Source: Schmidtea polychroa
Taxonomy: Eukaryota
DNA: 64,000 bases
Reading direction: 5' to 3'
NCBI GenBank assembly: GCA_044892525.1
Contig: CM097885.1
Coordinates: 5,644,001-5,708,000 of the forward strand
Shown: piece by piece, positions 407-60,915 of the stretch
Layout: every line of letters begins with the position of its first letter
Numbering within the stretch: the first letter of the stretch is position 1
Program-made: the position numbers and the translations under genes
Notes under the pieces: generated by a model
What the model was told of the DNA's origin: nothing
The model's database searches: none
The model's input: the letters and a program-made list of their open reading frames with translations, nothing else

Positions 407-873
407 AGTAGAGGGATAGCGGCCCACTAAACCCGCGGCCCACTAAACCCGCGGCCCTCTGGGACAAAGACATACCCCACCCCCGCCATTTAAATTTTTT
501 TTCAAGGTCAAATTTTAAACAAAGGCATATGACTCATCAAGGTCATTGAAACAAAGACCATGACTCATCCGATGACTCACTCAAGGTCACATGGCTCATC
601 CGATGACTCATTCAAGGTCATATGACCCATCCGATGACTCATTCAAGGACATATGACTCATCCGATGACTCATTCAAGGTCATATGACTCATCCGATGAG
701 TCATGCTAAATTTTTTAAAATTTAAATTCTCAGAGTTCCCGCCAATGGTTTTTATTATTTAATAGCTCATTCGAAAGGTATTTGAATGGTGAGTATTTGA
801 GACCATCGAAGGTCTATGGAGGTTCAATAACCTTCAAAGAGTTCAATGGTATTGGTTACACTCAACATCTCAC

Positions 874-916
<43 letters not shown>
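407..916 (+). repeat. Left terminal inverted repeat of the Polinton
   Basis: Reverse complement of ~15930-16450. Contains 31-bp tandem units and ends in an (ATT)n run. Confidence 0.95.
500..746. promoter_or_regulatory. Putative enhancer array in the TIR (AP-1-type TGACTCA, NR5A/ERR-type TCAAGGTCA, E2F-like TTCCCGCC)
   Basis: 31-bp unit CATATGACTCATCCGATGACTCATTCAAGGT repeated 4-5 times; TTCCCGCCAAT at 736-746. Motif matches only; function inferred. Confidence 0.5.
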
Positions 917-950
<34 letters not shown>

Positions 951-1083
951 CTCCGAGTTTATCCGACAAAATATTTTGTCCCCCTATGGGTAATGCTCAC
1001 AAGGGTACTGCTCACAAAGGTACTGCTCACACTCAACAAGTCACAAGGGTATTATTAAACAAATCAACAAAACATACATTTAT

Positions 1084-1584
1084 TTAAACAATAAAATAAT
1101 GTAAAATTAGCAAAGGTAAACTAAATATTGATGTACTAGTATTCGCAGCAATATTGTTTGAAATTGGTAACGTTGAATTGATTTTCAGATATTCTATTGA
1201 TCCTTTGATTGTTTCAATTTCTCTTACTAATAATTCGATCTTTTTTAACAAATAATCATGCTTCTTATCAATAATTTTCATATTCTTTTTATTTTCAACA
1301 ATAGAGTTATTGAAAACTTCAATATGATCGATCAATTTAATTTTTATATTTTGTATATATACAAATGATAGTTCATAACTGTTTTCTAAATTCTCCAATC
1401 TTTGAGATATTCTTTTTCCTGGATGCTTTGACCATTTTGGTTTGTCGAGAATATATAAAATATCCATCAACTTGGCTGTATTCGGACAAACACATATTGA
1501 TTTATTAAAAGACTCCACTGTTATTGCTGTATTGTGTGAGCACACACTCGTTATAATAATTAGCAATATGAATATAGTTTTCAT
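1084..1584 (-). CDS. Hypothetical secreted or GPI-anchored coiled-coil protein (166 aa)
   Basis: Intact ATG ORF with N-terminal signal peptide MKTIFILLIIITSVCS, heptad-like middle, and small residues followed by a hydrophobic C-terminal tail. Confidence 0.6.
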   Translation of the reverse strand: MKTIFILLIIITSVCSHNTAITVESFNKSICVCPNTAKLMDILYILDKPKWSKHPGKRISQRLENLENSYELSFVYIQNIKIKLIDHIEVFNNSIVENKKNMKIIDKKHDYLLKKIELLVREIETIKGSIEYLKINSTLPISNNIAANTSTSIFSLPLLILHYFIV

Positions 1585-1590
1585 GGTGTA

Positions 1591-1817
1591 TCAAATCAAA
1601 ACCTTTCTTTTACATTTATAGTCTATCAACCAATCAAAATCATACGGTATTAGTATAAATAAAACATCATATTTTAAATTATTGTAGAAATGTCTCATAA
1701 TTACATCATTAATTTTTAAATCATCTTTAAATTCATTCATTACGGAAATCTTGAAATCACAAGCATTCAAATTCAAACATTCTGTGTCAACAATATACTT
1801 ACTTAAACCAAATTTAT
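1591..1817 (-). pseudogene. 3' part of an ORF truncated at the junction with nested retroelement DNA
   Basis: Open frame ending 6 bp before the 1584 start codon; composition shifts abruptly to higher GC near 1817. Confidence 0.35.
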
Positions 1818-1894
1818 GGCTCCTAGCAACTCCCTAGAAACTGGAGCCTCCCCTTTTAGCTGTTCGCAATCTTTTTGCATGTCATCCTGTTGAA

Positions 1895-2191
1895 TCAGCT
1901 CTCCTGGATAAATATTTCATTCAGTTTGCTCTCGAGCGAGCGTACTTGTAGCTTCAGCGCTCGGATCTCGAGTTGATCTTGCTCCGCCTGGATCTGGAGT
2001 TGCGAGATGTGGGTCGTCCGTTTCTTCATCTCGGCTGGACTGAACCAAGTGCCTTCGAGTTCTCGGCACTTGATTTTTAACTTCTCGACCCTATTTCGAA
2101 AGTCCTCGGCTTGTTGCTGGGCCCGTTCGCGGTCCTTACGTAGGTTTTCGAGCAACTGGTACACTGAATGGAAACAATAATAAAATTCCAT
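1895..2191 (-). CDS. Coiled-coil ORF of nested (probably LTR/Gypsy) retroelement
   Basis: Heptad pattern with motif ELEGTWFSP; a degenerate paralog lies at ~31105-31350. Probably an exon of a longer spliced ORF. Confidence 0.55.
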   Translation of the reverse strand: MEFYYCFHSVYQLLENLRKDRERAQQQAEDFRNRVEKLKIKCRELEGTWFSPAEMKKRTTHISQLQIQAEQDQLEIRALKLQVRSLESKLNEIFIQES

Positions 2192-2476
2192 CGCTCGCTG
2201 TCATGTGCGTAAAGTTGGTTAGATTAATTGCATGAAATTAATAAGTGGATGATGAGAAAAGGGTCACCTCAATCATGAATACACCCCATCAGCTATAAAG
2301 TCCAAAATGTAATAGCAGAAAAAATAATTTATTATACTACGAAGATACAAGATAGACTATATTGTCAAGATTTAATGAACAGAAGAAAAATACAATTTGT
2401 TATACTACTACAAGGTAAAATATCACTGGATGAAATCAGTCAAAACCATTCCATTCAAGCCACGACTGTCGATGGG

Positions 2477-2857
2477 TTAGGCCAGGTTCTTACGGGGCCT
2501 TCCCCGTTTTCGTGGAGGGGTATTGGTCTCCTCCAACTCTTCAGGAGTCACCCCCAGTGTTTCGGCTTTGAGTTGGAGCTCGAGTCTCCTCAGCCGCCTT
2601 TGGGCCTCCACCACCTCGTCGGCCGCTCGATCGCGGGCTTCCCGGAGCACGTTGTTGGTGGGCTCTACTTTCACCCACGCTGGGGCATCGGGTTCTGGGC
2701 CACTTCGGATGACCGGACCATAATTATCGAGGTCCAACCCCCGGTTCCAGTCGTGTATCCGATACCATATGTACCGGGTCCGGAGCCGTGTTATCATCTG
2801 CCGGTATTCTACTTCGTCGGATTCGCTTGATTGGGACATTCTACCAAATAAACCCAA
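2477..2857 (-). CDS. ORF with C-terminal AT-hook/NLS-like motif (RKRGRPRK), adjacent to long LTR
   Basis: GC-richer open frame with coiled-coil and RGRP core, ~130 bp from the LTR end at 2974. Confidence 0.55.
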   Translation of the reverse strand: MGLFGRMSQSSESDEVEYRQMITRLRTRYIWYRIHDWNRGLDLDNYGPVIRSGPEPDAPAWVKVEPTNNVLREARDRAADEVVEAQRRLRRLELQLKAETLGVTPEELEETNTPPRKRGRPRKNLA

Positions 2858-2973
2858 TTAACAGGGATATTTGTGGGGGAATGATTGATTTTGTTAAATA
2901 GAGCGTATATTAATTTAAATCTCGGTTATTAATCCGTTATGTAATTTATCAATTAAAAATTTTCTTTTCCCAC

Positions 2974-5900
2974 TGTTAGATCAGTGCCGCCGAAACCTCA
3001 CCAAACCTATGGCTAAATGAAAATAATAACAAAATTAATTTCTGAAGATCTAATCCTATTTGACAGGGTTAATTCAGCAATTCAACTTTTATATTCAAAA
3101 AAAAAATAAATCTCCCTTTGTTTATCTAATCTAATTATTGAAAGTTTTATAATTCATTTTTAAAGTTTGTTATGTCATCGACATAAGATTTTATTTTATG
3201 TTAATTATTTGACCTCTGAATCAACCAGCTCCGTCGGTGCTGGGTGAGCTGTTGGAACTTAGTTTCCCACCTCATCCTCACTTAGGCGGGGTTGTCATGT
3301 TCAGGGTGACCATCTTACTATGAATTTTAGGTTGTTTGTTTCGTCTCCGGATCAGTTCAATATCCATGCTACGGTGATATTATAATCGTGGATTTATGCC
3401 CATTTTCATGAAGTTTCAACGCCGAGTTTGCATCGGTAACGTGCACCCTGCTGTTTTCCTTCTAAAGGAGATTATTAGCCTGCTCATGGCTGTGTATTTT
3501 AGTTGGAATTCTACTGCTATACTCGTACACTGAATGCTTGGATATACAATTCCTCATTTGTCAAGGTAAGCTAAGTTTTGTGATACAAAGCTAATTTTAC
3601 GTTAATAATTACTGCAACTAATTTGCAATGCAGTAAGGGGAATTATGATGATATTCAGGATAGCGGAAATTATGGGGAGCGATATAGATAGTAATAACAG
3701 TGCTAGTGATGATCTTAATCATAGAAAATGCTATTACTCCTTTCGCAAGGTTCGGCTAACATACAGTAATATCCTTGAAACAAAAAAAATTTTATGCGTT
3801 TCAGGAACAGCGCTCATTTTATGGGTTATCATTTATCCTTAATCGGTAGAGGTAGTTCATATAATATAAATACTCATGAATTATATCTTGGAGAGAAGTA
3901 CAGTTCGTAGTTTATGTATTTATAATTTAGGTTCTAGTCAACATACAACTTGTAATCTGCCTTCCCACACATAATTTTATAATGCTATTTAGAATTTCTA
4001 TTCCAATAACCCAAATCCATACATAATTTATATATATAATTATCCCTGGTTTTTCTCTTATAATCTAGTTGCATTAGTAACCCTAAATAACTATCCAGAG
4101 TTCGTGTTTTTTAGATTAGAGGTTATATATGACTGTTTATAATTAGGGTTATAGTCACACTACATTTATAATTTATATATTACTCGTTGTAAATTATAAT
4201 TTTATAATCCAAGTTTATATATAATCATCTATAATTGATATTTTGTACGTAAAATTAAATCGTAACCATCAATATACCTATATAATTTATAATCAACTAT
4301 TTACAATAATCATTTATAATTTATATTTTGTGAGTAAAATTTATTCGCAACTATTTATAGATTATCTTTCTATATACGTTTATAATTTATATACAACCAT
4401 TTCTACTTTATATTTTATAATCAAAATTTTTACATAATTATTTATAATTTATATTTTTATAAGTAAAATTTATTCGTAACTATTTATAGATTATATTTTT
4501 ATGATCAATATCCGTATATAATTTATATATAACTATTTACAACTATTTACATATAACTATTTATACTTTATATTTTATAATCAAAATTTTTTATAATTTT
4601 TTATAATTTATATTTTTATAAGTAAAATTTATTCGTAAATATTTATAGATTATATTTTTAGGATCAATGTCCGTATATACTTTATATATAGCTATTTATA
4701 ACTATTTATATATAACTATTTATACTTTATATTTTATAATCAAAATTTTTATATAATTATTTATAATTTATATGTTTATAAGTAAAATTTATTCGTAACT
4801 ATTTATAGATTATATTTTTAGGATCAATATCCGTATATACTTTATATATAACTATTTATAACTATTTATGTATAACTATTTATACTTTATATTTTATACT
4901 CAAAATTTTTACCTAATTATTTACAATTTATGTTTTTGTAAGTAAAGTTTATTCCTAACTATTTATAGTTTATCTTTTTAAGGTCCAAGTATATATAGGA
5001 TTATATGTAACTATCTATAATTAATATCCCTAATTATAAATTTATACGTAACTATTTGGAAATTATATTTTCATGGCCAAAATATTTGCACAATCATTTG
5101 TAGATCGAATTGTATAATCAAGATACATCGGTAACTTACCTATACCCATTTATATATTATATTTTTAAACTCGGATTTGCATAAAACTATTGATAAATTA
5201 TATTCTTATAAAATTTTGGGTATCATTCTTTATAGATTATAGTTTAATAATTTCCCATAAGTATTTATACTCTATATTCTAAATTCAGAGTTATATATAA
5301 CCATTTATAAATGATATTTCTGTAATTAAAATTTTATGTATAATTATTTTTAGATTGTATTTGTATAATTAAGATAACCACTTATCATTTACTCTTAATA
5401 CTCGAGATAGAGTTACCAATTATAGGTCGCATCTTAGGTTTAAGGCCTATATTGTATTATCATCGTGCATATATAATCTATACATAGCCGCTCATATATA
5501 TAAGCCAGGGTTCGAACTTAGCATAAGATTATATTTTATGAGATAATCTAGAATTCACGGTTATAGGATGTTTTTAATTTACACTTTATATACAAATTCC
5601 ATTTTTCAATTTATAATTTTTTCTTTTTATAAATAATCTATAGTTATAATTTTAATTGATAGGTACTTTATAGTTGAATGGGCCAATTTATAATGGAACA
5701 GACATTCACATCAAAAATTTTATTTTATAAATTAAAAAGACTTTATCGCTAATCATTTGATTGATGATATTACATTCTTTAATAACACTTCTGTAATATT
5801 GATTCATAAGGGGAAAACTAAAGAAGTTAGTTATCTTTATAATATGACCCTAACTCCTGATCGATTCGGATGTTGGCAATGCTACATTTTAATCCTGAGA

Positions 5901-7387
5901 TGAAAATACATACTATTCACTGGGGTTTTTTATACATGATTGAATCTATCCCATCCTTTACGCTTGTCGAAATTCGAGGTGTTATCATCGTAATTAGATC
6001 CGAGAAAATCCATACACCTTTATAAAAAAAATTTTTTTATTTACTAACGATGTTCGTCCAACGCCTAAGTGGAGAGGTCCCAACCGACTACATTAACTGA
6101 ATTGTAATTGCTGTGTTTAATTTGGGTCTGAGATCTACTCAATTATGATCCTAGTGTGAAGTAGTGTGTGAAATTTTTAATGTTGATTTTAAATGTGTAC
6201 TGCATTGGAACTCGGGAAGAATTCTTGCTTACACGGCCCCACTGTGACCGCTACAACAAGCCCTATTGTAATGTTGAGTCGAAACATCACTGTCGACCGA
6301 TAAATAAATATATGGAGCCATAGCGGAGGGGTTTTATCGACACAACTCCATGGTAGAACCATGAAGTGGCCGACCTCCGATGACCGAACAAAAAAAAATA
6401 TATACGAGATATTGCCTGTCTGCATGTGAAATCGTTATTTGAAAATTAATATTAAATGCAGGACTAATTAGAGACGCACTAAGACGCCGCTGATTAGTCA
6501 AAAAAAATAAAAACAAGTTAGATCTTGAGGGGATTAAAATCAATTAAAATCATTGACATTAAAATAATTTGCATTAATGAATCAAAACATAAATATACTA
6601 ATATCAAAAATGAGAATGATGAACATCAAAAAGGAAAAACTACTTACTATTAGTTTTCTGGACAAAATTTTTGTTCACAAAAATATTGGCATAAAAGGGA
6701 TTATTGTGACTGAAACGTGTCAGTATATATACCTATTTTGTACACGTGTATGTATTGATGCATTAAAACAAACTCGAATTCTTTTTATTCCAGAATTTTC
6801 TATTTTGCGATTTTGATATTTTTAACGGCAATTTTCGTGCCATAATTTTTGTTTTTATTTCTAAATTTCAAATTTTTAATTATTTTTCATTAATTTTACG
6901 TCCATGATGGATTTGGAACGGTTCCAGAACATTCTATATTACTTTTAATTTAATTTTTATTTTAATTGATGTTTTATGAATTTCTTTTTAAGAATTTTTT
7001 ATTTTTATTACTAATTTATTTATTTTTCTAACTTTTATTGTTTAAGGTAGCTTTTATGATGGTCATCGCCATTTTTATGGAATGTTCTGGGTTTTTCTGG
7101 AATCTTTTACTGTTTTTATCATCTTTTAAGTTATTCGAGTTTGCTTTTGGTAATTCTATGTTTATTTGGTTATTTTTGAGTTAGTTTTTTGCATAACTTC
7201 TTGCTTTTGTATAATTTTATTTAATTTGTGTGTTTATTATTTTTGTTGTTTTCTCCTTTAATTACCATTGTTTATTTGGTGTAGGTTTTAATATTTAACT
7301 ATACTTGGTGCTGTTTTACTTGCTGTGTACCTACACATTTCAGTCACAATTAGTATTTTGGGTCTAGAAGTCAGTTCTAGCCCAACA
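2974..7387 (-). mobile_element. Very long (~4.4 kb) LTR-like sequence nested in the Polinton
   Basis: Termini TGTTAG at 2974 and CCCAACA at 7387. ~6050-7387 is homologous to ~24680-26065 and homology stops exactly at TTCTAGCCCAACA. Internal AT-rich ~130-bp tandem repeats at 4250-5000. Confidence 0.65.
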
Positions 7388-7856
7388 CTACTGATTCAAC
7401 TTCTCTTAATTTCAATTCTTTTTTTGTTTCCATATCTTCTATTGCATTCTGCATTAAAAATAACATTAATGCCGGTTTTGTTAATTTGTGTCGAAGAACA
7501 TTGTCGACGAGCTTTTCCACTTTATTGAAAAATTCGGTGCACGAGTCATTTCCTTTTCGATATCTTAAAGCTGCGTCTAGATCCATGGCTAGGTTTTTCC
7601 TTGGCTCGAACGCTTTTCTTAATCTTTCTTCATAGCCTGAATAATCGCTCTGTACTTCTTCATATTTCTGGATCAACTCTACCGACAGAAAGGCCTTGGT
7701 AACAATTTCTTGAATTTCTTGCGGTTGTTGAGTGAGTTCGAAAAATCTCTTCAATTCCAAAATAAAAATTTCTAAATCACCATTTGGCAGCAATTGATTA
7801 GGTGGCTTGATATAGTTCTGGAGTCCTGGCGTGGTCGCCATGTTAGAAGAAGACAT
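7388..7856 (-). pseudogene. Gag-like ORF of another retroelement, cut by the long LTR at 7387
   Basis: 159-aa helical ORF resembling a retrotransposon Gag N-terminus; its last codons and stop come from the LTR terminus TGTTGGGCTAG. Confidence 0.45.
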
Positions 7857-8216
7857 AGTTTCACAGAAATCTTTATTCTCTATAAAAATCTAAGCGGAGC
7901 ACACAATCGTTATACTATTTATAGTACATTGAATTGCGTAATCTACAAAAGAGAGAATTATTAGTTTAAGTGATACTGTTGACACAGAAGACAATCATAC
8001 TTACTTAATTTAGTTATACAAGCATTCCCGCATCATTCAATAGATACGAAGGTCTAGTGACCTGGTTATGTAAGTAATTCGTTGGAAATTATTATATCAT
8101 CTTACAATCATCATTATTATTTACTTTCTATTAATGTTTTACTTTATATTAAAAGTCAACTATATATATATATATTAAAAACAAAATAATACAAACGTTT
8201 ATTATATACAAAACAT

Positions 8217-8624
8217 TTACTTTGATACAATCCGGGAGTAGTGAAACCTTCTCAGAGTTTTCACTAACTCCCATTCGACATATCGCCGATATCGATCGGC
8301 ACAGCATGAACATCCGAACATACATTGATACTCCGGCTCCATTTCTTTCATGGTTCTATTAATCTTGATATCCCATAAAAATTGATGGAATACCTCCATG
8401 ATTCGAATTTGAGTCGCATAGAAAATCAAATCCGGTATGATTTCAGGTTCTCTGTCATTGATTATTTCCGCAATTTGAGGATAATAATATTTTATCCTAT
8501 TGAGCATTACTTCTATATATTTTTCTAAAATAATAAATATAAAAAATGTCAAAATAAAAGTTTTAAATTTACCATAGTCGTCAATATCTTTCATTAAATT
8601 TGCTGCGCTTGGTATTTTGTACAT
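8217..8624 (-). CDS. Polinton hypothetical protein with Cys cluster (CMFGCSCC), likely one 48-nt intron
   Basis: ORF with in-frame GTAAAT...TTTTAG segment at 8572-8525 that explains the anomalous KFKTFILTFFIFIIL stretch; ATG at 8624. Confidence 0.65.
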   Translation of the reverse strand: MYKIPSAANLMKDIDDYGKFKTFILTFFIFIILEKYIEVMLNRIKYYYPQIAEIINDREPEIIPDLIFYATQIRIMEVFHQFLWDIKINRTMKEMEPEYQCMFGCSCCADRYRRYVEWELVKTLRRFHYSRIVSK

Positions 8625-8698
8625 GTTGTTGAATAAATGAATCCTAAACAAAAAACCGTTTGTTTAAATCAATCAATAACCAATTAGAAATTAACCAA

Positions 8699-9136
8699 TT
8701 AGAAATCGACCAATGAAATTATCTCATTTCGAACATTGTCAACAAATTCTCTATACTCCAAATTTCTCAACCCCAACATGACAACCTTTCCACTAGCAAA
8801 CACGTTGACACATATAGGGTTATATTTTAATAGTCTTAGTGCTGGAAACAATTCCGGTTCAAACATACAATCACATTTTTTTGACATGTTATATAGATTG
8901 ATACTATGTCCCATATCCATAGTAACGGTAATTGATTGGATTATAATATTATTTATTCGATATTGTAATTTATTAATATCCAAAGGTTTCTTACATCCCA
9001 TGATTCTGCATTTACCAGTCTTGAAAAATATTATCGGATATTTCCCGCTTCTATCGATAATTTGCTGAGGTTTCCCTGGTGGGAACCTCATATTCGATAC
9101 ATTAAAATTTCCTCGATAATTTATATTTGCTAACAT
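8699..9136 (-). CDS. TATA-binding protein (TBP)-fold protein, 145 aa, element-encoded
   Basis: Two TBP repeats: IIFFKTGKCRIMGCK (cf. LIFSSGKMVCTGAK) and FEPELFPALRLLKYNPICVNVFASGKVVMLG (cf. [32 protein letters not shown]). Intact and intronless. Confidence 0.88.
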   Translation of the reverse strand: MLANINYRGNFNVSNMRFPPGKPQQIIDRSGKYPIIFFKTGKCRIMGCKKPLDINKLQYRINNIIIQSITVTMDMGHSINLYNMSKKCDCMFEPELFPALRLLKYNPICVNVFASGKVVMLGLRNLEYREFVDNVRNEIISLVDF

Positions 9137-9239
9137 TATTAAATCATTTATGAAAATTAGTCTTTATATACAAATTGAGCACGAGTTCATTAAATCATCG
9201 AATATAAACAAATACACATATATTTATAAAATTTTTGAA

Positions 9240-9866
9240 ATGGAATTAAGAAATGATGCAGTATACCAAATCGTTGGTCCGAGTGGTAATGGAAAAACAT
9301 TATTTGTTTGTAAATTACTAAAATCAAATTTATTCAAATCAAAATTCAACAGGATTTATTGACATAGGGGTGCTGATGAAGAACATGGATTAACTCAATC
9401 AAGTTTCTGTAAATTAAAAAACATGAAAATAGTAAAGGGATTCGATAAAAACTGGTCCAGCCGATTAAAGAAAGGTGATGTCATTATTATCGATGATTTG
9501 TATCAAGAAGCTAATAAAGAAAATGATTTTAATAATTTATTTACAAAGATCAGCAGACATGTCGGTGTAACAGTTATTTTCATAACACAAAATCTATTTC
9601 ATCAAGGTGGGGCACATCGAACACGTAATTTAAATGTACAATATTTAGTTATTTTCAAGAATCCTAGAGATGCAACAGTGATCGATTTTCTTGCACGTCA
9701 AGCATACCCTAACAATCGTAATTTTCTTATCAGTGCATTTCAATATGCTACAAAAATACCTCATGGATATATATTTCTTGATTTCACGCAACAATGTCCC
9801 GATGATTTACGAGTAAAAACAGATATTTTCAACCCAAAAGGTGCCATGGTTTATAAACAAAGTTGA
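9240..9866 (+). pseudogene. A32/FtsK-HerA-type DNA packaging ATPase with one in-frame stop
   Basis: Walker A GPSGNGKT, Walker B IIIDD, then SRH..VIFITQNLF and HGYIFLD. TGA at 9360-9362 splits two same-frame ORFs. Confidence 0.93.
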
Positions 9867-10020
9867 AAACCTCTATGAATAATAATGTTTCTAAAAGCAA
9901 GGGTGAAAAATATTAGGAAATTAAGAAAAAGTATTAGAAAGAGTATTAAAGTTCCAAAAGTTCCACCAACAACTAGTTATACACCATCTAAAAAAAATTG
10001 TAACTGAAAATTTCTCTGCA

Positions 10021-10419
10021 ATGAATCTTATTTCGAAAAATCCTAAACCTAAACGTAAAACCCGTAAAACCCGTAAAACCAGTAAAAAAGTAGTTAAAAA
10101 TCATCGCAGTTTTCCATTTTTTAATGCATTGTTAAAGGCCCCGAGTATGAAAAGAATGAATATATTGCAATCATTCCCAAATTTTGTTGTCGATGATTTA
10201 CTCAATATTATACTTAAAGTAGTCAAAGGCAAAATTAAAATCAGTAAATCAAAAAAGCATTTATTGAGCAAACATAGGAAACCATTGATATCTTTAGTAA
10301 ATAATAAAAATCGTAAGCAAATGAGGAAAATTATATATAAACAACAAGGTGGATTTATTGGTGCATTGATACCTCTGGCATTATCATTATTAGGTGGAGT
10401 TGTAGGAAATCAATCATAA
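10021..10419 (+). CDS. Basic core-like Polinton protein with GG|F site and C-terminal hydrophobic helix
   Basis: Lys/Arg-rich; ends KQQGGFIGALIPLALSLLGG, typical of small conserved Polinton virion proteins. Confidence 0.7.
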   Translation: MNLISKNPKPKRKTRKTRKTSKKVVKNHRSFPFFNALLKAPSMKRMNILQSFPNFVVDDLLNIILKVVKGKIKISKSKKHLLSKHRKPLISLVNNKNRKQMRKIIYKQQGGFIGALIPLALSLLGGVVGNQS

Positions 10420-10422
10420 ACA

Positions 10423-10847
10423 ATGGGTGCTAATCCTTCATTGCCCGACATTAAATTTAATTTTAAATCTTCTTGTTGTAATGGAGAAGATTTGGACGAA
10501 CCCAGAGTGGCAAAATTAAAGAAAAGAGTTCCGAATTTGAAAAAAGAAACCCAGAAGTGGTTATCAGATCAGCTTGCGTACAGTTTGAACAAACCAATGC
10601 GGAAAAGATTTCCAACAAGAGCGTATAAAACATTTGGTATTGACGATTTATGGCAAATGGATTTGATGGAGATGATACCCTATTCGAAAATTAACAATGG
10701 GAATAAATATATTTTAACATGTATTAATGTATACAGCAGGTTTGCACGAGCAATACCAGTCAAGGCAAAATCTGCAGATGAAATGTCCAAGGCAATTAAT
10801 ATTTTATTTAAAGATGGACATCCTAATAACTTGCAAACAGATTTAGG

Positions 10848-10928
<81 letters not shown>

Positions 10929-11571
10929 CATTATTATTTTAGGTAAAGAATTCTACAATAGCAAAGTTACGCAAATCCTCGATAAACTGAAAATAAATCA
11001 CTACTCGGTACATTCTCAATACAAAGCTGCCCATGTTGAAAGATTTAATCGAACATTGAGAGATCGATTAAAGAAATTGTTCGTGCATCAAGGTAATAAA
11101 AAATGGGTAAATGCTTTACCGAAAATAATAACAAGTTATAATCATTCATCACATCGAGGACTGAATGGATTGAGACCGGTTGATATTACATCAAAAACAT
11201 CATTGACTTCTAAGAAATCTGTAAAAATTGCAAAACCTAAATATAAAGTCGGTGACCATGTTAGAATTAGTAAAATTAGTGCATCACCATTTATTAAAAA
11301 TTTTGATACAAATTGGAGTGATGAAGTCTTTGTAATTTCAAAAATAAATACTAAACAGAATCCTGTAATGTATGTCATCAAAGACAGTGATAATAATATT
11401 GTACAAGGGAAATTTTATGAGCAGGAATTACAAGTCATTCCTCCCCCAAAAGTATTTAGAATTCAAAAAATATTGAAAACTAAAACGGACGGTAAGGATA
11501 AACAATAATATGTCAAATGGCATGGTTATCAAAACCCGTCATGGATATCAGCAAAAGACCTAATAAAGTGA
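10423..11571 (+). pseudogene. Retroviral-like (rve) integrase with C-terminal chromodomain; one intron and one premature stop
   Basis: WQMDL, QTDLG|KEFYN and VERFNRTL give the D,D,E triad. GT-AG intron at 10847-10942 filled with (ATT)n. Chromodomain FRIQKILK...*YVKWHGY..SWI is interrupted by TAA at 11506-11508. Confidence 0.95.
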
Positions 11572-12566
11572 ATTTTTATACTATTTTGCCGAGCAATAGT
11601 TGCCCATTAATTCATCCAGACAATCAAGCCAGTAAATTCATGGTCAATCTCCAGAATCCGATTTCTTTAAATGGGGACTGGGAAGTTACAACACATTCCC
11701 ATTTTATAGTCAATGTAAGATTGATTTCAAAAGGAATATTGTGAAAACATGTAGCGGTATCTTTGTTATCAGTAATTATGATAAAACATATCATATTCCA
11801 AACCAAATATTAGATTCGCATTGCTATATGTTTTACAAGGATGGATTAAATATCAGTTGTGATTTTAAACCATTTACAATAACATTCGAAACTATTGAAG
11901 ATGCCAAACGAATGGGTTGCAATAAGTTGAAAAATATTGTTACGGAGACGGAGTATTTATTACGTTTTAATCTATTTGAAGCAAACAGTATAGTGAAAGA
12001 AGAAATCAAAATATCTATGTCGTATAATGATGAAGTTGAAGAATCATTTACCTTTGCTGATGAATTATATTATTGATAAACTTGATGATTTACTTAAATA
12101 TTTAAAGTTCAATTGTTCACATATATTTAAAAATTTGGAAATTGTGAAAGATTTGATGTTTACATTCAGTTTGAATGATGACATTTGCGAAGTTACATTT
12201 GATAAAAATTTGGCAAATTCACTTGGATTAGATAAGCAAAAATATCGAGAAAAATCGACTGGTATACGCAAACCAAGAATACTAGAACATCATCAACAAA
12301 TGTTCATATATACTAACATTATCAAACCCATAAATGTTGGTGATTCCAGTGTTCCTCTTTTGAAATCGGTATGGATTGGCAAATATGAACATGATGAAGT
12401 TGTCAATATAAATATCGATAATCCCATGTATTTACCAATAGCAAGTTCATGTATAAACAATATAGAAATAAATATTCGTGATGATGTTGGAAAACTTATA
12501 AACTTTCCAAAAGGTTCAAAAACTCATTTGACATTACATTTTCGTAAAGTAGATGGCAAATTCTGA
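11568..12566 (+). pseudogene. Minor capsid (penton) protein, frameshifted
   Basis: N-term FYTILPSNS..HPDN...LNGDWEV and C-term FIYTNII...VGDSSVPLL...IEINIRDD.G..INF...THLTLHFR, spread over three frames. Confidence 0.88.
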
Positions 12567-12921
12567 TATTATTAGTATGTATAGTGGTAGCCAATCTGGT
12601 GGCGAATTACCATATTTTATTGGTAAACAGTACGGATCAGGATGGTTGAGAACAATTGGTAGATTTGCCCTGCCTATTCTTAAACGTATTGGTAGTTTTG
12701 GTATGAAAACTGCAAAAGATGTTATTATGAATGAACAGAAAATATTACCATCTCTAAAAACAAATGCTTTAGCTGAATTAGGGAAAGTTTTACCCGGGGT
12801 TGCAGGTATGTTTCAAAAAGAAAAACCTCCAGCTCCAGCTCACGCTCCAAAACGTAAAAGACATGGAATATCACGTATAAACAAACGAATGAAAGGACAT
12901 GGAACTATATTTGCAAAATGA
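12553..12921 (+). CDS. Small basic Polinton virion-core-like protein (QYGSG motif)
   Basis: QSGGELPYFIGKQYGSGWLRTIGRFALPILKR amphipathic segment and basic tail, located between minor and major capsid genes. Confidence 0.75.
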   Translation: MANSDIISMYSGSQSGGELPYFIGKQYGSGWLRTIGRFALPILKRIGSFGMKTAKDVIMNEQKILPSLKTNALAELGKVLPGVAGMFQKEKPPAPAHAPKRKRHGISRINKRMKGHGTIFAK

Positions 12922-14115
12922 TTTGTGGTAAATCTGAATTATGTATATTTGATAGACCGTCGCCCCAGGCTGTAATAGAATTTGGGGCATTTGAGGAGTT
13001 TTTCCTATGAATTCAATTACCGATAGTAGAAATGATATCGAGTTTTATATTAATGGTTCGCAAACCGAATATTTAGATTTGAACGATACTTTATTGACTG
13101 TTCAGATTAAGGTTGTAGATAAAGATAGAAAAGCTTTGGATGCCAATGCAGATGTAATACCGAACAATTTCCTGTTTCATACTCTTTTTAAAGATGCAGT
13201 GTTAGGTTTTAATAATATCAAGATTGAGGGCGGAAATAATACATTCATTCACAAGGCATTAATAGAAACTATTTTAAATTACAATTCCGATACTAAAAAT
13301 ACATGCCTTACTCCTATGGGCTATGGTAGTGATGATGAAAGAAAAAAGTGGGTAAAAGGCTCAAAGGTTTTCACCATTTTATGGATCAACCGAAATATTT
13401 ACTCCCGGGAGTTAATGTACATATTAGACTGAAAAGGTCTGATTCTGCATTATCTCTTACTAGTGCAACTACTACACCAATATGTCAATTAGTTGATGCA
13501 AAATTATTGGTGAGAAGAGTTCGAGTAGACCCGTCAGTATTAGCAGGTCATCAATTGGGTCTTAATTCAAAACATGCAATTTATCCATTAAAAACAAAGG
13601 AAATTGTACAATTTGCTATTGCTAAAGGTGCTTCATCATTCTATAAAGAACAAATATTTGGTGACAGAAGAATGCCTAATTTTATTCTGATAACATTTCA
13701 AAGTGAAGCACAATATAATGAATCATATACTGCGTCCAGCTCAATTTTCAAAAACTTTGGTGTTACATCATTGACTTTGTCGAAAAATACTGATTATAGA
13801 GAAACATATATTCAAGATTTCGAGAATGATAATTACTGTGCGACATATATGCAGAGTATTGTTAGAAATCTTGGTTATTTAGATAAAAATTTGAATTGCG
13901 GAATCACTCTAGAAGATTTTAAAAGCAAATACCCATTTTTTACATTTGTTTTAGCCCCTGATTTTGATTTAAATCAAAGTCAATTACCTCAAAATGGAAA
14001 TTTACGACTGGATATAAAGTTTGCAAAAGCTATTACTGAACCAGTACATGTTATAATATATGGAGTATTTGAAAATGAAGTTCAAATTACTGCAAATAGA
14101 ACTGTGTTGGTATAA
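12918..14115 (+). pseudogene. Major capsid protein (double jelly-roll, hexon-like), two frameshifts
   Basis: KSELCIFD..PQ, IEFYI.G..EYLDL..TLL, QPKYLLPGV, GNLRLDIKFA and IIYGVFENEVQI motifs; frame breaks near 12998 and 13378. Confidence 0.93.
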
Positions 14116-14142
14116 ATGTATATTGAAACACAAAAAGTTGTC

Positions 14143-14508
14143 ATGGAGTAAGTTGTTTTTATACTCTGGATTTATTTAAGTAGTTCTGTTCAGGTCAATA
14201 AAATCGGAAAACGGATATTGGGAAATGAATTTGATAAAATTCCATATTTGAGCAATAATCAAGCCATAATCGTCAATACTCAATCGTCTCATCTTGGTGG
14301 AGAACATTGGATAGCTATATATATGAAACCTGGTAATATATTCGTGTTCGATCCTATGGGTTTCTATTATCCTGCTTTGTTGATATCAAAACTGCAAACA
14401 ATGGGGTAACCTATTGTGTATAATAAAACTATGTTTCAAAATCCCTTGACTCAAACATGTGGCAAACACTGTTTGGCGTGGTTGTTGTACAAAATGTTTC
14501 ATGTTTAA
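14143..14508 (+). pseudogene. Adenain-like cysteine maturation protease with one in-frame stop
   Basis: VNT...GEHW, FDPMG and Q.....CG.HC give His/Asp/Gln/Cys. TAA at 14407-14409. A probable 36-nt intron at 14148-14183 yields N-terminus MDSVQV. Confidence 0.9.
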
Positions 14509-14909
14509 TAAATGTTTAGTGTATGCTTTGTTGTTGTTATTTAATAAGAAAGACTTTTATTATTATTATTTGTTATTTAATAAGAAAGACTTTAATTTTA
14601 TTATTTATTGTTATTATTAAGAATAATATTAATTATTTTTAATTAACTTATTACTTATCATAAAGCCATCACATGCTCCGTGCATGCACAGTGCATGTTA
14701 ACAAAGAACTTACTAATAAAGACAGTCACATGGAAACAGTGTGATTAACAAGGCATGTGTAGATGCAATATGATTGGTTGAGAGAGGAAAATTCTAAGTT
14801 ACTATGCGTGTATGTCTAATTCTGATTGGCTGGGACAGGAAAGTTTTCATTCTCTTTATAAACATTTGCAATTTCCAAATTCGTCACAATTATTTTAAAA
14901 TTTTACAAA

Positions 14910-15543
14910 ATGGAAGGAGAAGGAAATAATATTTTAAGATGTATGATGGCTGGCGATAATGGTATATTATTTATTTTTATTTTATTTATTTTTATATATT
15001 TATTTTGTAGATGATTTATGGTACCAGGTGACCGAGAACGAAAATGGCTTTAATTTAAATTGCACCTATGGTAATTTTATTTTTATTTATTAATATTATT
15101 ATTATTATTTAGACGTTATAATGGTGAGCGATGAGGAAGATGAATTAATAATTATTAGTGATGATGAAGAGGAATCTCCAATTATTATTAATGATCACTA
15201 CTTATCAGGTAAATTATTATTATTATTATTAGTTAATTTAAAAAAACTGTTTTAGGAAATAGTCAAAGAGAAAATTCCCCCAATCTTGTTGAAGAAACTG
15301 AAAATATATTAGGTGCCATGATTGAATATACACGTAAATTTTTATTATTATTATATGTAATTTTTCAAAATTGATTTAGAAAGTTCAATTATTTTGGAAG
15401 ATATATATGATCCTATTATGGATGAGCTTTATGCCCCTATTAATGTTGATGCCCCGGAAATTGCTGATGCTCCAGAAACTATATTATTTAATGCTCCTAT
15501 TCAGGATGCCCCTATGCGGGATGATTTCGATGCCCCACTTTAA
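14910..15543 (+). CDS. Five-exon acidic protein with tandem SUMO-interacting-motif-like sequences (149 aa)
   Basis: Exons 14910-14961, 15011-15070, 15113-15208, 15256-15333, 15380-15543 joined by four phase-1 GT-AG introns (42-49 nt) give one open frame. Upstream ATTGG boxes and TATAAA near 14857. Confidence 0.8.
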
Positions 15544-15831
15544 CTGGGGATGACCTCTCTGAGGATGATACAGATTCAGATTCTGAATCTAAATGTTAGT
15601 TTTTATTTATTTTATAAATATTTATTTTAATAATTTATTTTACTAATTTCTTAAATTAAAAATAACATTCTCTAGATTATTTAAATTATTTATAACTTAA
15701 ATTATTTCAAACATAAAATTTTATATGAAAATATCGAAGAAATGATGAAATTTATATGAAAAATGATGAAAATTATATGAAATTAATGATTCTAACTAAT
15801 CTAGAGAATGTTATCTTTATTTAAGTTTAGA

Positions 15832-16450
<619 letters not shown>

Positions 16451-21929: not shown

Positions 21930-23180
<1,251 letters not shown>

Positions 23181-23199
23181 ATGTAAATTTATATTTTTG

Positions 23200-26065
23200 T
23201 AAGATACCTATGGGGGGAGGGGTCATTTATGAAAATGTACAATTTATAGTTTTAAATATAATATAAGTTAAATATATATTAAGATAAGCTAATTTAGTAT
23301 ATTTAGGTGGTAGTTGATGACTATATGATTTTGAGGAGGGTCATTTATAAAAATTTACAATTTACATTTTTAAATATAATATAAGTTAAATATGTATTAA
23401 AATAAGCTAATTTAGTATATTTAGGTGGTAGTGGATGACTATATGGTTTATGGGGGTCTTTGATGAAAATTTTTCAACTATAATTTTAAAGGTAATCTAA
23501 GTTAAGTATATATATATTAAATAGTCTAAATTAGTGTATCAGGTAGTGGTTAATGGTTATATGAATTAAGGGGGGTCATTTATCGAAATTTTCTAAATTT
23601 ATATCGCAAAGGTAAGGTATTAATGTATTTAGACAACAATTAATGGTTAGGTGACCCGAGGAATTATTAAGGTGGATAACTGTACATATATAAGTTAATT
23701 TATTACTATATATATTGTCCTCGACAAATGTATAGTTTGATGGGGGTACTTATGAAAAAATGTAAATTATACTTTATAAGTTTTAAATATACGTACATAA
23801 GTTAGATTATGAATCTGGACATTTGTTTCGACCATTACGTAACTTGGGGGGTATTTATAAAATATTTACAACTTATTATAGATTATATTTTTATCGCTAA
23901 CGTAGTTTATATTTTATACTTTTATGACCAAATTAAGATTATAATTTATAGTCTTTCAGCTAATATAAGTTTATAATTTATATTTTTATGAAATTAAATT
24001 TATAGTTTATATTTTAAAGCTAATATAATTTTATAATTTATATTTTTATGAAGTTAAATTTATAGTTTATATTTCTAAAGCTAATATAATTTTATAATTT
24101 ATACTTTTAAGTTTATAATTTATATTTTATGAAGTTAAGTTAAATTTATAGTTTATATTTTAAAGGTAATATAATTTTATAATTTATATTTTTATGAAGT
24201 TCAATTTATAGTTTATATTTCCAAAGCTAATATAATTTTATAATTTATATTTTTATGAAGTTAAGATTATAATTTATACTTTTATAATTAACTTAGAGTT
24301 ATAATTTATAATTTTTATCGTCAATACAAATTTGTAATTTATAATTTCAAGAAATTAAATTTATAATTTATACCTTTATAACTAATCATAATTTATATTT
24401 TGAAGAAATTAAATCTATAAGTATAATTCACATTTTTATGAAATTGAGAGGATAATTTATACTGTTATGGGTTTACGATTTGAATTTTTATAGTTAGTTT
24501 AGAGTCTATTCAATTTAAAATCCAAGTCTTGCTGATGCGCATGTCGAACACCTTTATGAATACTATCACTACTAAATCAATCATTTTTAAAAAATCTTTA
24601 CTTTACACTATTACTAGAAAATTTATTTAAGACATTTATAAATCTAGATTCGACAAACGTATAGGTAGAGTTGGTTCTTGATGATATTTAACCGTCTACA
24701 TTAATTGTGAATTGTAGAGTTGTGATTAATTTAGGTCTGAGATCTACTCTGTTTATTAACCTTAGTGTATTGTATTGTGATGATTTTGGATGTAGATTTT
24801 AACTATGTAAATTATTCATGCATTGAAAGTCGGGAAGAGTGTTTGCTTTCGCGGCCCCACTGTGACCACTACGACAAACCTTACTGTTGTGTGGTAAGTC
24901 AACCCTTTACGGCTGACCTATAATAAATAGGTAGAGTCAGACGGAGGATTTCATCGACTTAACTCCATGGCAGAACCATGAAGTGGTGCGACCTCCGAAT
25001 GACCTGAACAAAAAAAACCAATAATATTGATAAGTGCGTGCCAGGCAATGGCCTGCAATCATTGTGGGCTGTTTACTCATTGATGATAAAGTGCATAGGT
25101 GCAGGTTTGGCTGGGATCTCGCTTCAAAATCAATGATAACCGACGATCTCACTCAAACCTACATTTCTATAGTTAAAAAGAAATAATGAAAACAAGCTTT
25201 CAATAATAATAATTTATAATTCACAATGAAATCGTCCTTACCTACAATCTCAGAAAAATCAAAACCAAAAATTTGGCATAAGAGTAAAAATATTCATTTG
25301 CATTTTTTTTCCTTGAAAAGTGACGAAATGTGTTAGTTTATATAGCCTCTGTTTGACGTGTAAGTATACATGCGTGCATTGATGCAGTAAAACAAATTCG
25401 GATTATTTTAATTCTCGAACATTCGATGTTTAATTTTTATCGATTTTGATGGCGATTTTTCAGTAAGAATTTTTGTTTTTATTTTTGGAATTTTGTGTTT
25501 GAATTATTTTTTATTAAATTTGCCTCCATGATGGATTTCAGCATTTCCAGAACATTCCATGCTAAATTTAATCTATTTCTTATTTTTAAATTGTTTTTTA
25601 TGATTTCTTTTCTAAAATATTTATTTTTTAAACTAAAATATTTATTTTTTATAAATTTTATTGGGTCGTTTGGCGGTCATGATGGATTTCGCCATTTTTA
25701 TGAATTGTTCTGGATTTTTATTCAAAATATCGATATAATTTTCTTTACGTAAGATTTTATGAAGATTTTCTTTAATTTTCTTTTTTAATTTTTTCTAATC
25801 GCCTTTATTCGAATTTGTTTTTTGTTGTTTTATGTCTTTCGGTTATATTTGAGTAAGTTTTCGTGTAATACTTCTTGCTCGTGTTTTATTTTATTTTTAA
25901 TTCAGATGTTTTATTTTTGGGTATATTATCTCTCTATTATCATTGTTTACTTGGTGTTATATATATTTTTATTTAAGTAAACTTAGTGCTGGGTATGCGT
26001 GTTGTGTACTGACACATTTCGTCCCATTCCTAACTTTGGGTCTAGAAATCAGTTCTAGCCCAACA
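23200..26065 (-). mobile_element. Truncated diverged copy of the long LTR family
   Basis: Homologous to 6050-7387 (e.g. CGGCCCCACTGTGACC, AGAACCATGAAGTGG, terminal CAGTTCTAGCCCAACA); internal ~120-bp and ~40-bp tandem repeats. Confidence 0.65.
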
Positions 26066-26360
26066 GCAGTAAATACTTGTGTGTTGAGTGTTTTTAAATA
26101 AGCTTTTGTGTATTGTATGTATTGATTGTTGTGTTAAATTAAATAATTAATAAAAATTTTTTTAAATTATTAAATTAAATTTTAAATGTTAAAGTTTTAA
26201 AAAATAATATTTTTTATAAAATAAAAATTTTTTTTATATATAATTAAATTTGTTTAAAATCCTTTATTTAATGAGTATTATATCCCACTTGATGATGACA
26301 GGAAAACTGTCAAAATTAATCGTGAAAAAAATGTTTGATTGGCGTTATCTTATAATTAAA
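26066..26360 (+). repeat. Inverted copy of the Penelope 3' end
   Basis: Near-exact reverse complement of ~21930-22222. Confidence 0.9.
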
Positions 26361-36829: not shown

Positions 36830-36985
36830 TAAAAGTCAAAATTTGATCTCCGACTAGTGCTGACGCTTCAATTTGAACTCTTCTTACCATTAATTTTGCA
36901 TCAACAAATTGACATTTAGATATCTTCAATCTGAGTTGAAAAATAACACCAGGGAGAAAATATTTTTGACTGATCCATGAATAAA
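36830..36985 (-). pseudogene. Fragment of a second Polinton major capsid gene
   Basis: KYFLPGVIFQLRLK..CQFVDAKLMVRRVQIEASALVGDQI aligns with KYLLPGVNVHIRLK...CQLVDAKLLVRRVRVDPSVLAGHQL at 13390-13560. Confidence 0.8.
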
Positions 36986-40292: not shown

Positions 40293-41483
40293 TTAGACCA
40301 ATGGATAGCTGGCCATGGTGGCTATCCCACACTGATTTCCCTTATCCTTGCTCATCTTGATGTATCCTTGAATTCCCCATCCGATACCCCAACTGTACAT
40401 TAGTTATTAATATTATATATAAAACCTAACAAACAAACCTATTTTTGACGAGCCAGAAATTCTGACCATTTTCGGTTCCATAGCCGACAGCAAGAACGCC
40501 GTGATCTAATTGGGTAGAAGAGCATTGAACTTCGTTATAAATGCCACTCCTGTAAAGAGTAAAACAAAAGAATTTCAACGTGATTATTACTTGTATAATT
40601 GGAAACTATAATTGCTGGCATCAATGGCCACTGAAATTGGTCCAACTGTAGCAACAGCTGAGGCCAATGCTTGCTCATTACCGTGGGGAATATCCGAGAA
40701 CCCAGTGCAGCTTCCAACAACTTTTGATTTGGCATATGCACAGTTACCGTCCTGTATTCAACACATGAAAATAACCTACTGAATCCTTTACGGAAATTAT
40801 TCTCACCTGTGCAGTGTAAGGATATGTACTTTCAGCTTCGATACCAAATTGTTGGATATATTGAAAGGCGCTGTCCATGAGTCCTCCATTGCAACCGTTA
40901 TTTCCAAAGGAGCCACTGCAATCAACCAGCTGCTGTTCAGAGAAGCTGATAAGGTTTTGGGTTTTTCGATAATGTTGTCCTTCCAAAGAGCCTGTTGTTG
41001 AGAATGACCAACACGATCCACATTGTTGCTAAATGATTCAACAATCATATATTATTAGTATTCATTAATTAATACTTGATTCTTCACAGGGGTCACAAAT
41101 CCCTTAGTTCTCCAATCTACAGAACTTGGTAAAGCTCCCATATTTTCTGGAGCAATGAAATGGGATGAGAAGTTCATTCGTTTTGGTGACACTCCCAAAT
41201 ATCTCGCTCTGAATTCCTCGTTGGTCATGTCAGCGAAATGATTCAATCCGAGTGTATAAGTGTGCTTTCCGAGGTCGTATTCAAGGTTGTGCTGTTGGAT
41301 ATATTTCAGATTTTGTTCCCAGATGATTCTTCTTGAAATTTCATTCAATGAGACGTAATTCTTTCCGAATTGGGTTTTGTAGGCTGCCCATTCGTCATTG
41401 AGTTCGCTGTCAATTATGAACTGCTGAGGCGCGGCACTAACTGTGGCGGCAAGGAATAGAGATATCAGGACGATGATCTGCAT
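40293..41483 (-). CDS. CTSL: Cathepsin L-like cysteine protease, five exons
   Basis: Exons 41483-41076, 41028-40807, 40751-40591, 40549-40439, 40392-40293. Signal peptide, ERFNIN-like and GLNHFAD propeptide, [19 protein letters not shown]. Confidence 0.95.
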
Positions 41484-44336: not shown

Positions 44337-45541
44337 TCAAACAAGAGGATAACTGGCCATCGAAGCTATTCCACATTGATTATGATGGTCCTTGGTCATT
44401 TTTATGTACCCCGAAAGGCCCCACTGTGGTCCCCAGCTGAAGAAGATTAAAAATAAATTTGTTTCATTTCAGAAAAAGTAACCTATTTTTAACGATCCAG
44501 TAATGTTTATTGTTCTGTCTTCCATATCCAACTACAAGGACTCCGTGATCTAGACTAATGGGGGAGCAAGTTTTTTCATTATAGATTCCGCCTCTGAAAT
44601 ATTTTTCAAGTCAAAGGATCTTTTGAAGATTAAAATTTCACTTATATAATTGAAAAGTCGGTTTGCTCGCGTCGATTGCCACCGATACCGGACCAACTGT
44701 AGCGACAGCCTTTTCTAAGTCTTTCTCATTTCCTCTTTTTATATCAACAAATCCCGTGCAATGGGCAACAACCTTCGAGGCGTCATACTGGCAATCTCCT
44801 TCCTAATTAGAAAGCGTTTATTGTACAATATTCGAAAGTTTTATTTGTAATCACTTTTGCCGTGTAAGGATAATCTGCCTCCGATTCCAATCCGAATTGT
44901 TGAATATATTTAAATGCGTTATCCATCAGGCCGCCATTGCATCCACTATTTTTAAAAGGTTTGCTACAGTCAACGAGCTGCTGTTCAGATAAGGAAATTA
45001 ACTGACCAGTTTTACGTTTATGTTGACCTTCTAGTGACCCAGTAGTGGAAAAAGACCAACAGGATCCACAATTAGCCTAGGATAGAAATATATAAAACGA
45101 GAATTGTCCGAAATACATCCATACTTGATTTTTTACGGGAGTTACGTACCCCTTCTTTCTCCAATCCACTGTCTTCGGGTGATCGACAACATTTTCTGGG
45201 GCCAAGAAAATTGTTCTTGTATAATTCTTGTTTATTGGTTTCAATCCAAGAACTTTTGTCCTGTATTCTTCGTTAGTCATATCTGCAAATTCATTCAGCC
45301 CGAGGTAGTAGGAATGTTTTCCGAGATCGTATTCAATATTGTGTTGCTGTATGAATCTGAGATTTTCTTCCCAGATCAGTCGTCTAGTTAATTCGATTAA
45401 AGATTCGTATTTTCTTTGGAACTGGGTCTTGTACATATTCCATTCTTCGTTCAATTCCTCGTTAACTTGGAACTGTAATTTCACGCCACTAACGGAAACA
45501 ACGCACAATACTGCAAACAGAATGATTTTCATTGTCAGCAT
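44337..45541 (-). CDS. CTSL: Cathepsin L-like cysteine protease paralog, five exons
   Basis: Same intron positions as the neighbour (first intron 45124-45077); [26 protein letters not shown], ends MASYPLV*. Confidence 0.95.

Positions 45542-51430: not shown

Positions 51431-51490
<60 letters not shown>

Positions 51491-60855: not shown

Positions 60856-60915
<60 letters not shown>

What the first reader, a model, noticed from the sequence alone, without database searches (positions are those of the whole stretch)
14910..15599. Hidden five-exon acidic poly-SIM protein at the right end of the Polinton
Seen: four phase-1 GT-AG introns join five exons into an ORF missed by the ORF track. It contains DVIMVSDEED, ELIIISDDEEE, PIIIND and SIILED, has its own CCAAT/TATA-like promoter, and a frameshifted acidic tail (LTGDDLSEDDTDSDSESKC*, to 15599). 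Known: hydrophobic core + Ser + acidic run is the SIM consensus of PML/PIAS/Daxx, and SUMO is central to silencing of transposons and nuclear DNA viruses. Inference: an element-encoded SUMO sponge or anti-silencing factor, or an acidic transactivator that could work with the TBP-like protein.
Basis: partly seen in the sequence, partly recalled or inferred. Interest (0 to 1): 0.75.

Follow-up and report, generated by a model that had tools for sequence, protein, structure and literature searches.

The report
Orphaned spliced leader of Polinton polymerase
Five small, likely spliced exons near the end of a virus-like Polinton transposon are predicted to encode an acidic, floppy peptide with two SUMO-binding-type motifs, and they are most likely the left-behind front end of a DNA polymerase gene that this copy lacks, not a separate protein.

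Summary
The five exons are real coding sequence. Four 42-49-nt, 5-11% GC, phase-1 GT-AG gaps join one open frame (0 of 200,000 shuffles stay open), and 6 of 6 listed differences in exon 5 of another copy fall on third codon positions. No splice junction was seen in reads. The frame break before the acidic tail is absent from one contig of another copy. Two of the four named motifs fit the published SIMa pattern, and both come from one 30-nt duplication.

The standalone-protein reading is doubtful. The supposed end 'KC*' sits on a fifth phase-1 donor (T|GTTAGT), and this element has no polymerase anywhere. Related polymerases start with variable leaders and zinc fingers, one behind a 49-nt phase-1 intron. 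The scan noted the same layout before on other DNA of this genome, spliced onto pPolB; that lead changed my reading, and I could test it only indirectly.

Best reading (0.68): the orphaned spliced leader of a deleted pPolB. Rival (0.2): a free acidic host modulator. SUMO binding is untested (about 0.3). New variant of a known kind; interest 0.4.

The parts
407..16450 (.). Polinton/Maverick copy with terminal inverted repeats and a 6-bp target duplication (TACGCA); no polymerase gene; several broken core genes
14773..14862 (+). Promoter-like stretch: two reverse CCAAT boxes (14773, 14825) and TATAAA (14857); function inferred
   Evidence: many contigs of other copies lie on 14830-14900
14910..14961 (+). 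Exon 1 (first ATG; one divergent contig differs at this ATG, second ATG pair at 14944)
14962..15010 (+). Intron 1, 49 nt, phase 1
15011..15070 (+). Exon 2, 60 nt
15071..15112 (+). Intron 2, 42 nt, phase 1
15113..15208 (+). Exon 3, 96 nt: 30-nt tandem repeat giving two SIMa-pattern motifs (at 15115 and 15145) and a degenerate third
15209..15255 (+). Intron 3, 47 nt, phase 1
   Evidence: indirect hint of removal in one contig
15256..15333 (+). Exon 4, 78 nt (a second phase-1 GT lies at 15313)
15334..15379 (+). Intron 4, 46 nt, phase 1
15380..15594 (+). Exon 5 with acidic tail; frame broken in this copy near 15530-15545 (stop at 15541-15543)
15595..15600 (+).
15601..15831 (+). AT-rich non-coding remainder with an imperfect inverted repeat (about 15622-15872); likely the stump of the long intron, or a 3' UTR
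15832..16450 (.). (AAT)n tract and right terminal inverted repeat; similarity to the left arm ends inside the tract

Best explanation
The five exons are most likely the spliced 5' leader of the element's protein-primed DNA polymerase gene, whose main exon this copy lacks, and they would encode a disordered acidic arm with two predicted SUMO-binding motifs. Shown: exon and intron anatomy, open frame, acid-rich composition, a phase-1 GTTAGT donor at 15595, no polymerase in the element. Inferred: in whole copies host splicing removes four short introns and a fifth, longer one, and the split codon after ...SESK becomes the first cysteine of a zinc finger at the start of the polymerase polyprotein; a deletion between about 15600 and the (AAT)n tract of the right terminal repeat removed the rest. 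Speculative: the arm would hold the polymerase precursor at SUMO-rich nuclear sites through the two tandem motifs (about 0.3), or is a tolerated, fast-changing linker. This copy cannot make a polymerase; if transcribed it would give a short acidic peptide.
For: (1) GTTAGT at 15595 is the only one of 23 GT sites in 14900-15900 with AGT at +4..+6, and it is phase 1 like the other four introns and the integrase intron. (2) No polymerase in the window: tblastn with six related polymerases, best E 0.39; profile search, best E 0.23, with a control locus at 5e-49. A polymerase is present in 6 of 9 related loci of 6 kb or more and in 7 of all 74. (3) The polymerase ORF of L006, a relative that shares the protease intron with this element, begins at the acceptor of a 49-nt, 12% GC, phase-1 GT-AG intron, with no Met before residue 60. 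(4) Polymerases of L047, L052 and L061 have long variable leaders with zinc fingers that start Y-K/R-C-x-x-C (or Y-C-x-x-C), and L061 has an acidic stretch there; the tail here ends K then T|GT. (5) Only 236 bases separate the tail from the (AAT)n tract. (6) Earlier AI notes from this genome describe five phase-1 exons with an acidic SIM-rich leader on pPolB and a junction that creates a zinc-finger cysteine; these are leads, not independent proof.
Against: No sequence in hand shows these exons upstream of a polymerase: no genome is held and DNA patterns found 0 loci. In L006 and L015, the two relatives holding both genes, the polymerase faces the protease from the opposite strand, whereas these exons follow the protease on the same strand; gene order does vary among relatives. 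The exons match none of 74 loci. The +3 base of the fifth donor is T, while the other four have A. An ATTAAA at 15655 could serve a standalone transcript. Contigs of other copies continue over 15533-15703 much as here, which fits an intron or a 3' UTR equally. No junction read was seen.
Confidence: 0.68

Rival explanations
1. A standalone acidic accessory protein that ends at KC*, working as a SUMO decoy or an E1A-like ('Oncoid') modulator of host chromatin or transcription.
For: Own promoter-like boxes and a downstream ATTAAA; open frame under apparent selection in exon 5; two SIMa matches, 2 of only 5 in all six frames of the 64 kb; 8 CK2-type sites; Starrett et al. place small motif-rich 'Oncoid' ORFs upstream of PolB (PMC8502044 section 3.2); opposite polymerase orientation in L006 and L015.
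Against: The stop lies inside a phase-1 donor; no LxCxE, CR1 or CxxC motif, and no basic run for nuclear import; no homologue as a free protein in three protein searches; the element's polymerase is missing and must have been somewhere.
Confidence: 0.2
2. One locus, two products: use of the fifth donor gives the polymerase precursor, and read-through into the donor's stop gives a free acidic peptide, so both readings hold.
For: In-frame stop immediately inside the donor and a poly(A)-type signal 55 bases later; no substitution is listed at 15595-15599 in the laid contigs while the T-run behind varies in length (lists are cut).
Against: In-frame stops at the start of AT-rich introns are common (introns 1-4 also contain or lead to stops); no RNA evidence.
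Confidence: 0.07
3. The frame and motifs are a chance product of AT-rich, ATT-repeat-rich DNA and are not translated.
For: ATT repeats yield isoleucine runs; one SIMa match arises in 12.5% of residue shuffles; 6 of 7 listed differences in exon 4 change the residue by codon position and letter; no junction read.
Against: 0 of 200,000 shuffles open; consistent phase; sharp GC steps at GT and AG; 6 of 6 listed exon-5 differences at third positions. This rival stays likely for the motifs alone, not for the frame.
Confidence: 0.05

Closest known systems
Polinton/Maverick (adintovirus, eupolintovirus) pPolB polyprotein with TP and vOTU domains (Krupovic et al., 10.1101/2024.03.18.585575; abstract and passages)
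   Same: Element has the integrase, ATPase, capsid and protease genes, terminal inverted repeats and 6-bp duplication; related polymerases carry long N-terminal extensions.
   Different: The paper's main text has 0 occurrences of 'intron', 'zinc' or 'SUMO'; here the front of the gene is likely a set of phase-1 micro-exons encoding an acidic arm, and the polymerase itself is missing from this copy.
'Oncoid' genes of adintoviruses (Starrett et al. 2021, PMC8502044; section 3.2 read whole)
   Same: Small, motif-rich ORF in the region upstream of PolB; CK2-type acidic sites; nearby zinc-binding motifs expected.
   Different: No LxCxE, no CR1 pattern (one near miss, IMDELY), no CxxC; five exons; 'splic' does not occur in that paper's main text. 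Its supplements were not read.
Tandem-SIM proteins such as RNF4, and viral SIM proteins such as ICP0, K-bZIP, LANA, BGLF4 (PMC3901395 and PMC12751080, passages)
   Same: Hydrophobic core followed by Ser and an acidic run in a disordered chain.
   Different: No RING or enzyme domain in the exons; the two cores start only 10 residues apart, and close spacing blocks simultaneous binding in RNF4; no binding shown.
Introner-bearing eupolintoviruses of dinoflagellates (PMC12166617; abstract start and passages)
   Same: Spliceosomal introns inside integrated Polinton-type elements.
   Different: There the introns are transposon-generated introner copies; here they are short AT-rich introns without evident shared sequence, all phase 1, clustered in one leader.

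Membership tests
Polinton/Maverick element | Terminal inverted repeats and 6-bp target duplication | tested here: met
Polinton/Maverick element | rve integrase, packaging ATPase, capsid proteins, cysteine protease | tested here: met
   Pfam rve (below cut-off, E 1.4e-5) and Peptidase_C5; colinear matches to L006, L015, L039; ATPase and capsid names rest on that colinearity and on recall
Polinton/Maverick element (autonomous) | Protein-primed DNA polymerase B | tested here: not met
   absent from the window; this is a defective copy
Spliced leader of pPolB | Final donor in phase with the leader frame | tested here: met
Spliced leader of pPolB | Polymerase exon downstream on the same strand in whole copies | not testable with these tools
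   no genome held; no family contig found
Spliced gene | Junction reads | tested here: inconclusive
   contigs only, introns 1-3 masked; one contig lacks the end of intron 3 but keeps intron 4
SUMO-interacting motif | SIMa/SIMb/SIMr sequence pattern | tested here: met
   2 of 4 named motifs fit SIMa; one overlapping SIMr reading
SUMO-interacting motif | Located in a disordered region | tested here: met
   charge-hydropathy 0.448 against boundary 0.499 (formula recalled); no structure prediction run
SUMO-interacting motif | Conserved across copies | tested here: inconclusive
   no row for exon 3 among the listed differences; one divergent contig covers only its two ends
SUMO-interacting motif | Binds SUMO | not testable with these tools
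Adintovirus Oncoid | LxCxE, CR1 or paired CxxC motif | tested here: not met
   0 matches for each
Adintovirus Oncoid | CK2 acceptor sites | tested here: met
   8 sites (expected in any acidic chain)

The most novel reading that the evidence does not exclude
This Polinton lineage has built, from host-type micro-exons and a short tandem duplication, a SUMO-binding arm on its DNA polymerase precursor; the same exons can also end at the stop inside the last donor and release a free SUMO decoy, which polymerase-less copies like this one could still supply against SUMO-dependent piRNA silencing.
Probability: 0.12. Interest if true: 0.75.

Novelty: new variant of a known kind. Interest (0 to 1): 0.4.

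Why it matters
If the leader reading holds, the polymerase of these animal Polintons depends on the host spliceosome and carries a fast-evolving acidic arm that ORF-based annotation misses, so published N-termini and some small upstream 'accessory' ORFs may be mis-called. If the motifs bind SUMO, it would be a first link between a Polinton replication protein and the SUMO system, which is required for piRNA-guided transposon silencing in Drosophila (10.1101/533091, abstract); planarian Polintons are piRNA targets (PMC8532177, passages). A search for 'Polinton' with 'SUMO' listed 9 papers, none on this by title or abstract start. This particular copy is a dead fragment, so whole copies are the better object of study.

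Tried and rejected
No RNA holder listed for 14100-15780. No joint at any intron in contigs of X1, X5, X7, X8, X12, X16; introns 1-3 are masked and joints there are dropped, so this is no evidence. Exon 5 as protein query: nothing at E 0.01 among longer or similar-length proteins; 2 hits at E 2-4e-4 in 1.84 billion representatives, of which P0109 is an unrelated repeat protein and P0110 was not read. Exon 3 against PDB: 0 hits to E 10. ESM Atlas: no usable hit for exon 3 or 5. Viral contigs: 0 relatives with capsid, TBP, integrase, TBP alignment or two DNA patterns; genome contigs 0. The rest of the L006 and L015 contigs could not be fetched, so only 8 bases of the L006 upstream exon are seen. 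The inverted repeat after the tail does not fold better than shuffles as a whole (z -1.5). Oncoid/Rb-binding reading rejected on motifs. A link to the TBP-like gene: no evidence found; the promoter shares only two 11-mers with the rest of the element. Complex prediction with SUMO and structure prediction were not run. Literature: 'Maverick pPolB intron zinc finger' 0 papers; 'Polinton DNA polymerase exons introns' 22 papers, 17 listed, none on a spliced polymerase leader by title or abstract start; passages of 10.1101/2023.08.22.554363 and PMC12220804 mention only self-splicing introns. The library lacks most subscription papers and Repbase reports, and no supplements were read.

Full report
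Setting. The finding lies in a 16,044-base Polinton/Maverick copy, 407-16450, with terminal inverted repeats and a 6-bp target duplication. The right arm carries ATPase, integrase, capsid and protease genes on the plus strand, colinear with metagenome relatives; a TBP-like gene lies on the minus strand. Several core genes are broken. No whole genome is held. Earlier notes call the host a likely flatworm; I did not test that. Contigs of public runs show a very high-copy, diverse family: 6,467 contigs of run X1 lie on 14100-15780.

The observation. Exons 14910-14961, 15011-15070, 15113-15208, 15256-15333 and 15380 onward have 30-38% GC. They are separated by gaps of 49, 42, 47 and 46 nt with 5-11% GC, each GTA..TAG and each in phase 1. 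The frame runs 149 codons to a stop at 15541. Each exon is closed in both other frames, and none of 200,000 base shuffles is stop-free. A contig from a divergent copy has 19 differences over 15256-15464, of which 14 are listed. All 6 listed in exon 5 are at third codon positions of the predicted frame; the 7 in exon 4 are at positions 1, 2, 3, 1, 1, 3, 1; one is in intron 4. So exon 5 looks constrained and exon 4 looks free to change. The lists are cut to the best-supported rows.

The tail. One X1 contig of 202 letters covers 15383-15583 with one other letter and one single-letter gap, which puts exon 5 and the acidic tail in one frame in that copy (tables 4 and 8). The break near 15530-15545 is therefore likely private to this copy or its assembly. 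One divergent contig differs at the first ATG, in a stretch with 13 gap positions, so the start at 14910 may not be general.

Splicing. No junction was listed in either laying. All runs are contigs, and 14962-15116 and 15206-15239 are masked as repeats. One hint remains. A 547-letter contig of X8 (RNA is only a guess) has 202 letters where the window has 294, and its second piece starts at 15256, the first base of exon 4. A DNA contig of X5 with the same counts of differences and gaps starts at 15240, inside intron 3. The same X8 contig keeps intron 4. I count this as inconclusive.

The motifs. With the patterns quoted in PMC3395311 (passage), VIMVSDE and LIIISDD fit SIMa, EDELIII gives an overlapping SIMr reading, and PIIIND and SIILED fit nothing. 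SIMa occurs 5 times in all six frames of the window, two of them here. Residue shuffles give two or more matches in 0.65% and one or more in 12.5%. The second figure is the fair one, because the two matches are copies of a 30-nt repeat. The cores start 10 residues apart; in RNF4 close spacing prevents joint binding (PMC3901395, passages). A review calls the SIM a loose motif and lists several viral examples (PMC12751080, passages). The chain falls on the disordered side of a charge-hydropathy plot (formula recalled) and has one lysine. No homologue was found.

What it most likely is. Earlier scan notes on other copies in this genome describe five phase-1 micro-exons that add an acidic SIM-rich leader to pPolB, and a long last intron whose junction creates a zinc-finger cysteine. 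I took this as a lead and tested what I could. Second, the window has no polymerase: six related polymerases give best E 0.39 by tblastn and a profile gives best E 0.23, against 5e-49 for a control locus. Polymerase matches occur in 7 of 74 related loci and in 6 of the 9 that are 6 kb or longer; three of the ORFs were scanned to Pfam PF03175 or not as follows: L047 and L061 match, L006 and L015 do not pass, but L006 aligns with L047 at E 5e-178. Third, L006 shares the protease intron with this element, and its polymerase ORF starts at the acceptor of a 49-nt phase-1 intron, with the first Met at residue 60. Fourth, L047, L052 and L061 have long variable leaders with C2H2-type fingers, and L061 has an acidic stretch among them. 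Fifth, only 236 bases lie between the tail and the (AAT)n tract in which similarity to the left terminal repeat ends, a plausible deletion join.

Against it. I hold no sequence in which these exons precede a polymerase. In L006 and L015 the polymerase faces the protease from the other strand, and none of the 6 relatives with a protease match has an acidic micro-exon gene behind it. The fifth donor has T at +3, unlike the other four. An ATTAAA at 15655 allows a standalone transcript. Hence 0.68 for the leader, 0.2 for a free protein, 0.07 for both, 0.05 for chance.

How it would work. Shown: anatomy, frame, composition, donor, missing polymerase. Inferred: host splicing builds leader, zinc finger, terminal protein, vOTU and polymerase as one precursor; Krupovic et al. 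propose that vOTU cuts the terminal-protein part off (10.1101/2024.03.18.585575, abstract and passages), so the leader would likely stay with the N-terminal piece. Speculative: the two motifs, sharpened by CK2 phosphorylation of the serine after each core, would bind SUMO and place the precursor at SUMO-rich chromatin or compete with SUMO-dependent silencing. I put real SUMO binding at about 0.3; otherwise the arm is a tolerated linker. This copy cannot make a polymerase.

Comparison and novelty. It works like the variable N-terminal extension of Polinton polymerases and resembles the 'Oncoid' region upstream of adintovirus PolB (PMC8502044, section 3.2 and passages), but lacks the Oncoid motifs. 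Introns in Polinton-type elements are in print for dinoflagellates (PMC12166617). I found no paper on a spliced or SIM-bearing polymerase leader; the library is partial and no supplements were read. The scan has found this layout before on other DNA of the same genome. Verdict: a real hidden coding region, most likely a remnant leader; new variant of a known kind; interest 0.4.

Noticed in passing
window 14148 (+); L006 8484; L015 9199: The protease gene has a GTAAGT phase-2 intron candidate right after its start codon at the same place in this element and in two metagenome relatives (33-39 nt candidates), so introns in this clade are old and not host-specific.
   Followed up: partly
window 10847-10942 (+): 96-nt phase-1 intron filled with ATT repeats inside the integrase; the flanks read D-L-G / K-E-F. 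My note gave 10848 and 95 nt in error.
   Followed up: partly
window 8525-8572 (-): 48-nt AT-rich GT-AG intron candidate in the ORF at 8217-8624.
   Followed up: no
window 2900-8100: Left arm holds no polymerase but an AT-rich 160-nt tandem array (4385-4980) and an ORF at 7377-7856 (-) that looks gag-like by eye only; possibly inserted DNA.
   Followed up: no
window 2477-2839 (-) and 1084-1584 (-): One ORF ends in an AT-hook-like basic motif (recalled); another has hydrophobic ends like a membrane or secreted protein; no Pfam match above cut-off.
   Followed up: no
window 48346-55716 and 56630-64000: Perfect 7.4-kb inverted repeat without long ORFs, like the gene-less palindromic elements in earlier notes.
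   Followed up: no
window 21934-26354: Element with 289-nt inverted arms and an ORF with a weak GIY-YIG match (E 0.003, below cut-off).
   Followed up: no
window 36840-36965 (-): Isolated fragment similar to the major capsid protein of related elements.
   Followed up: no
window 41055-41483 and 45077-45541 (-): Two host cathepsin genes (Pfam I29), and a 37-nt satellite from 37732.
   Followed up: no
L015 9576, L031 2883, L032 3336, L038 1795, L039 5843: Five of six relatives with a protease match have a similar 160-175 aa ORF right after it (starts like F-I-D-x-x-x-F); this copy has none there.
   Followed up: no
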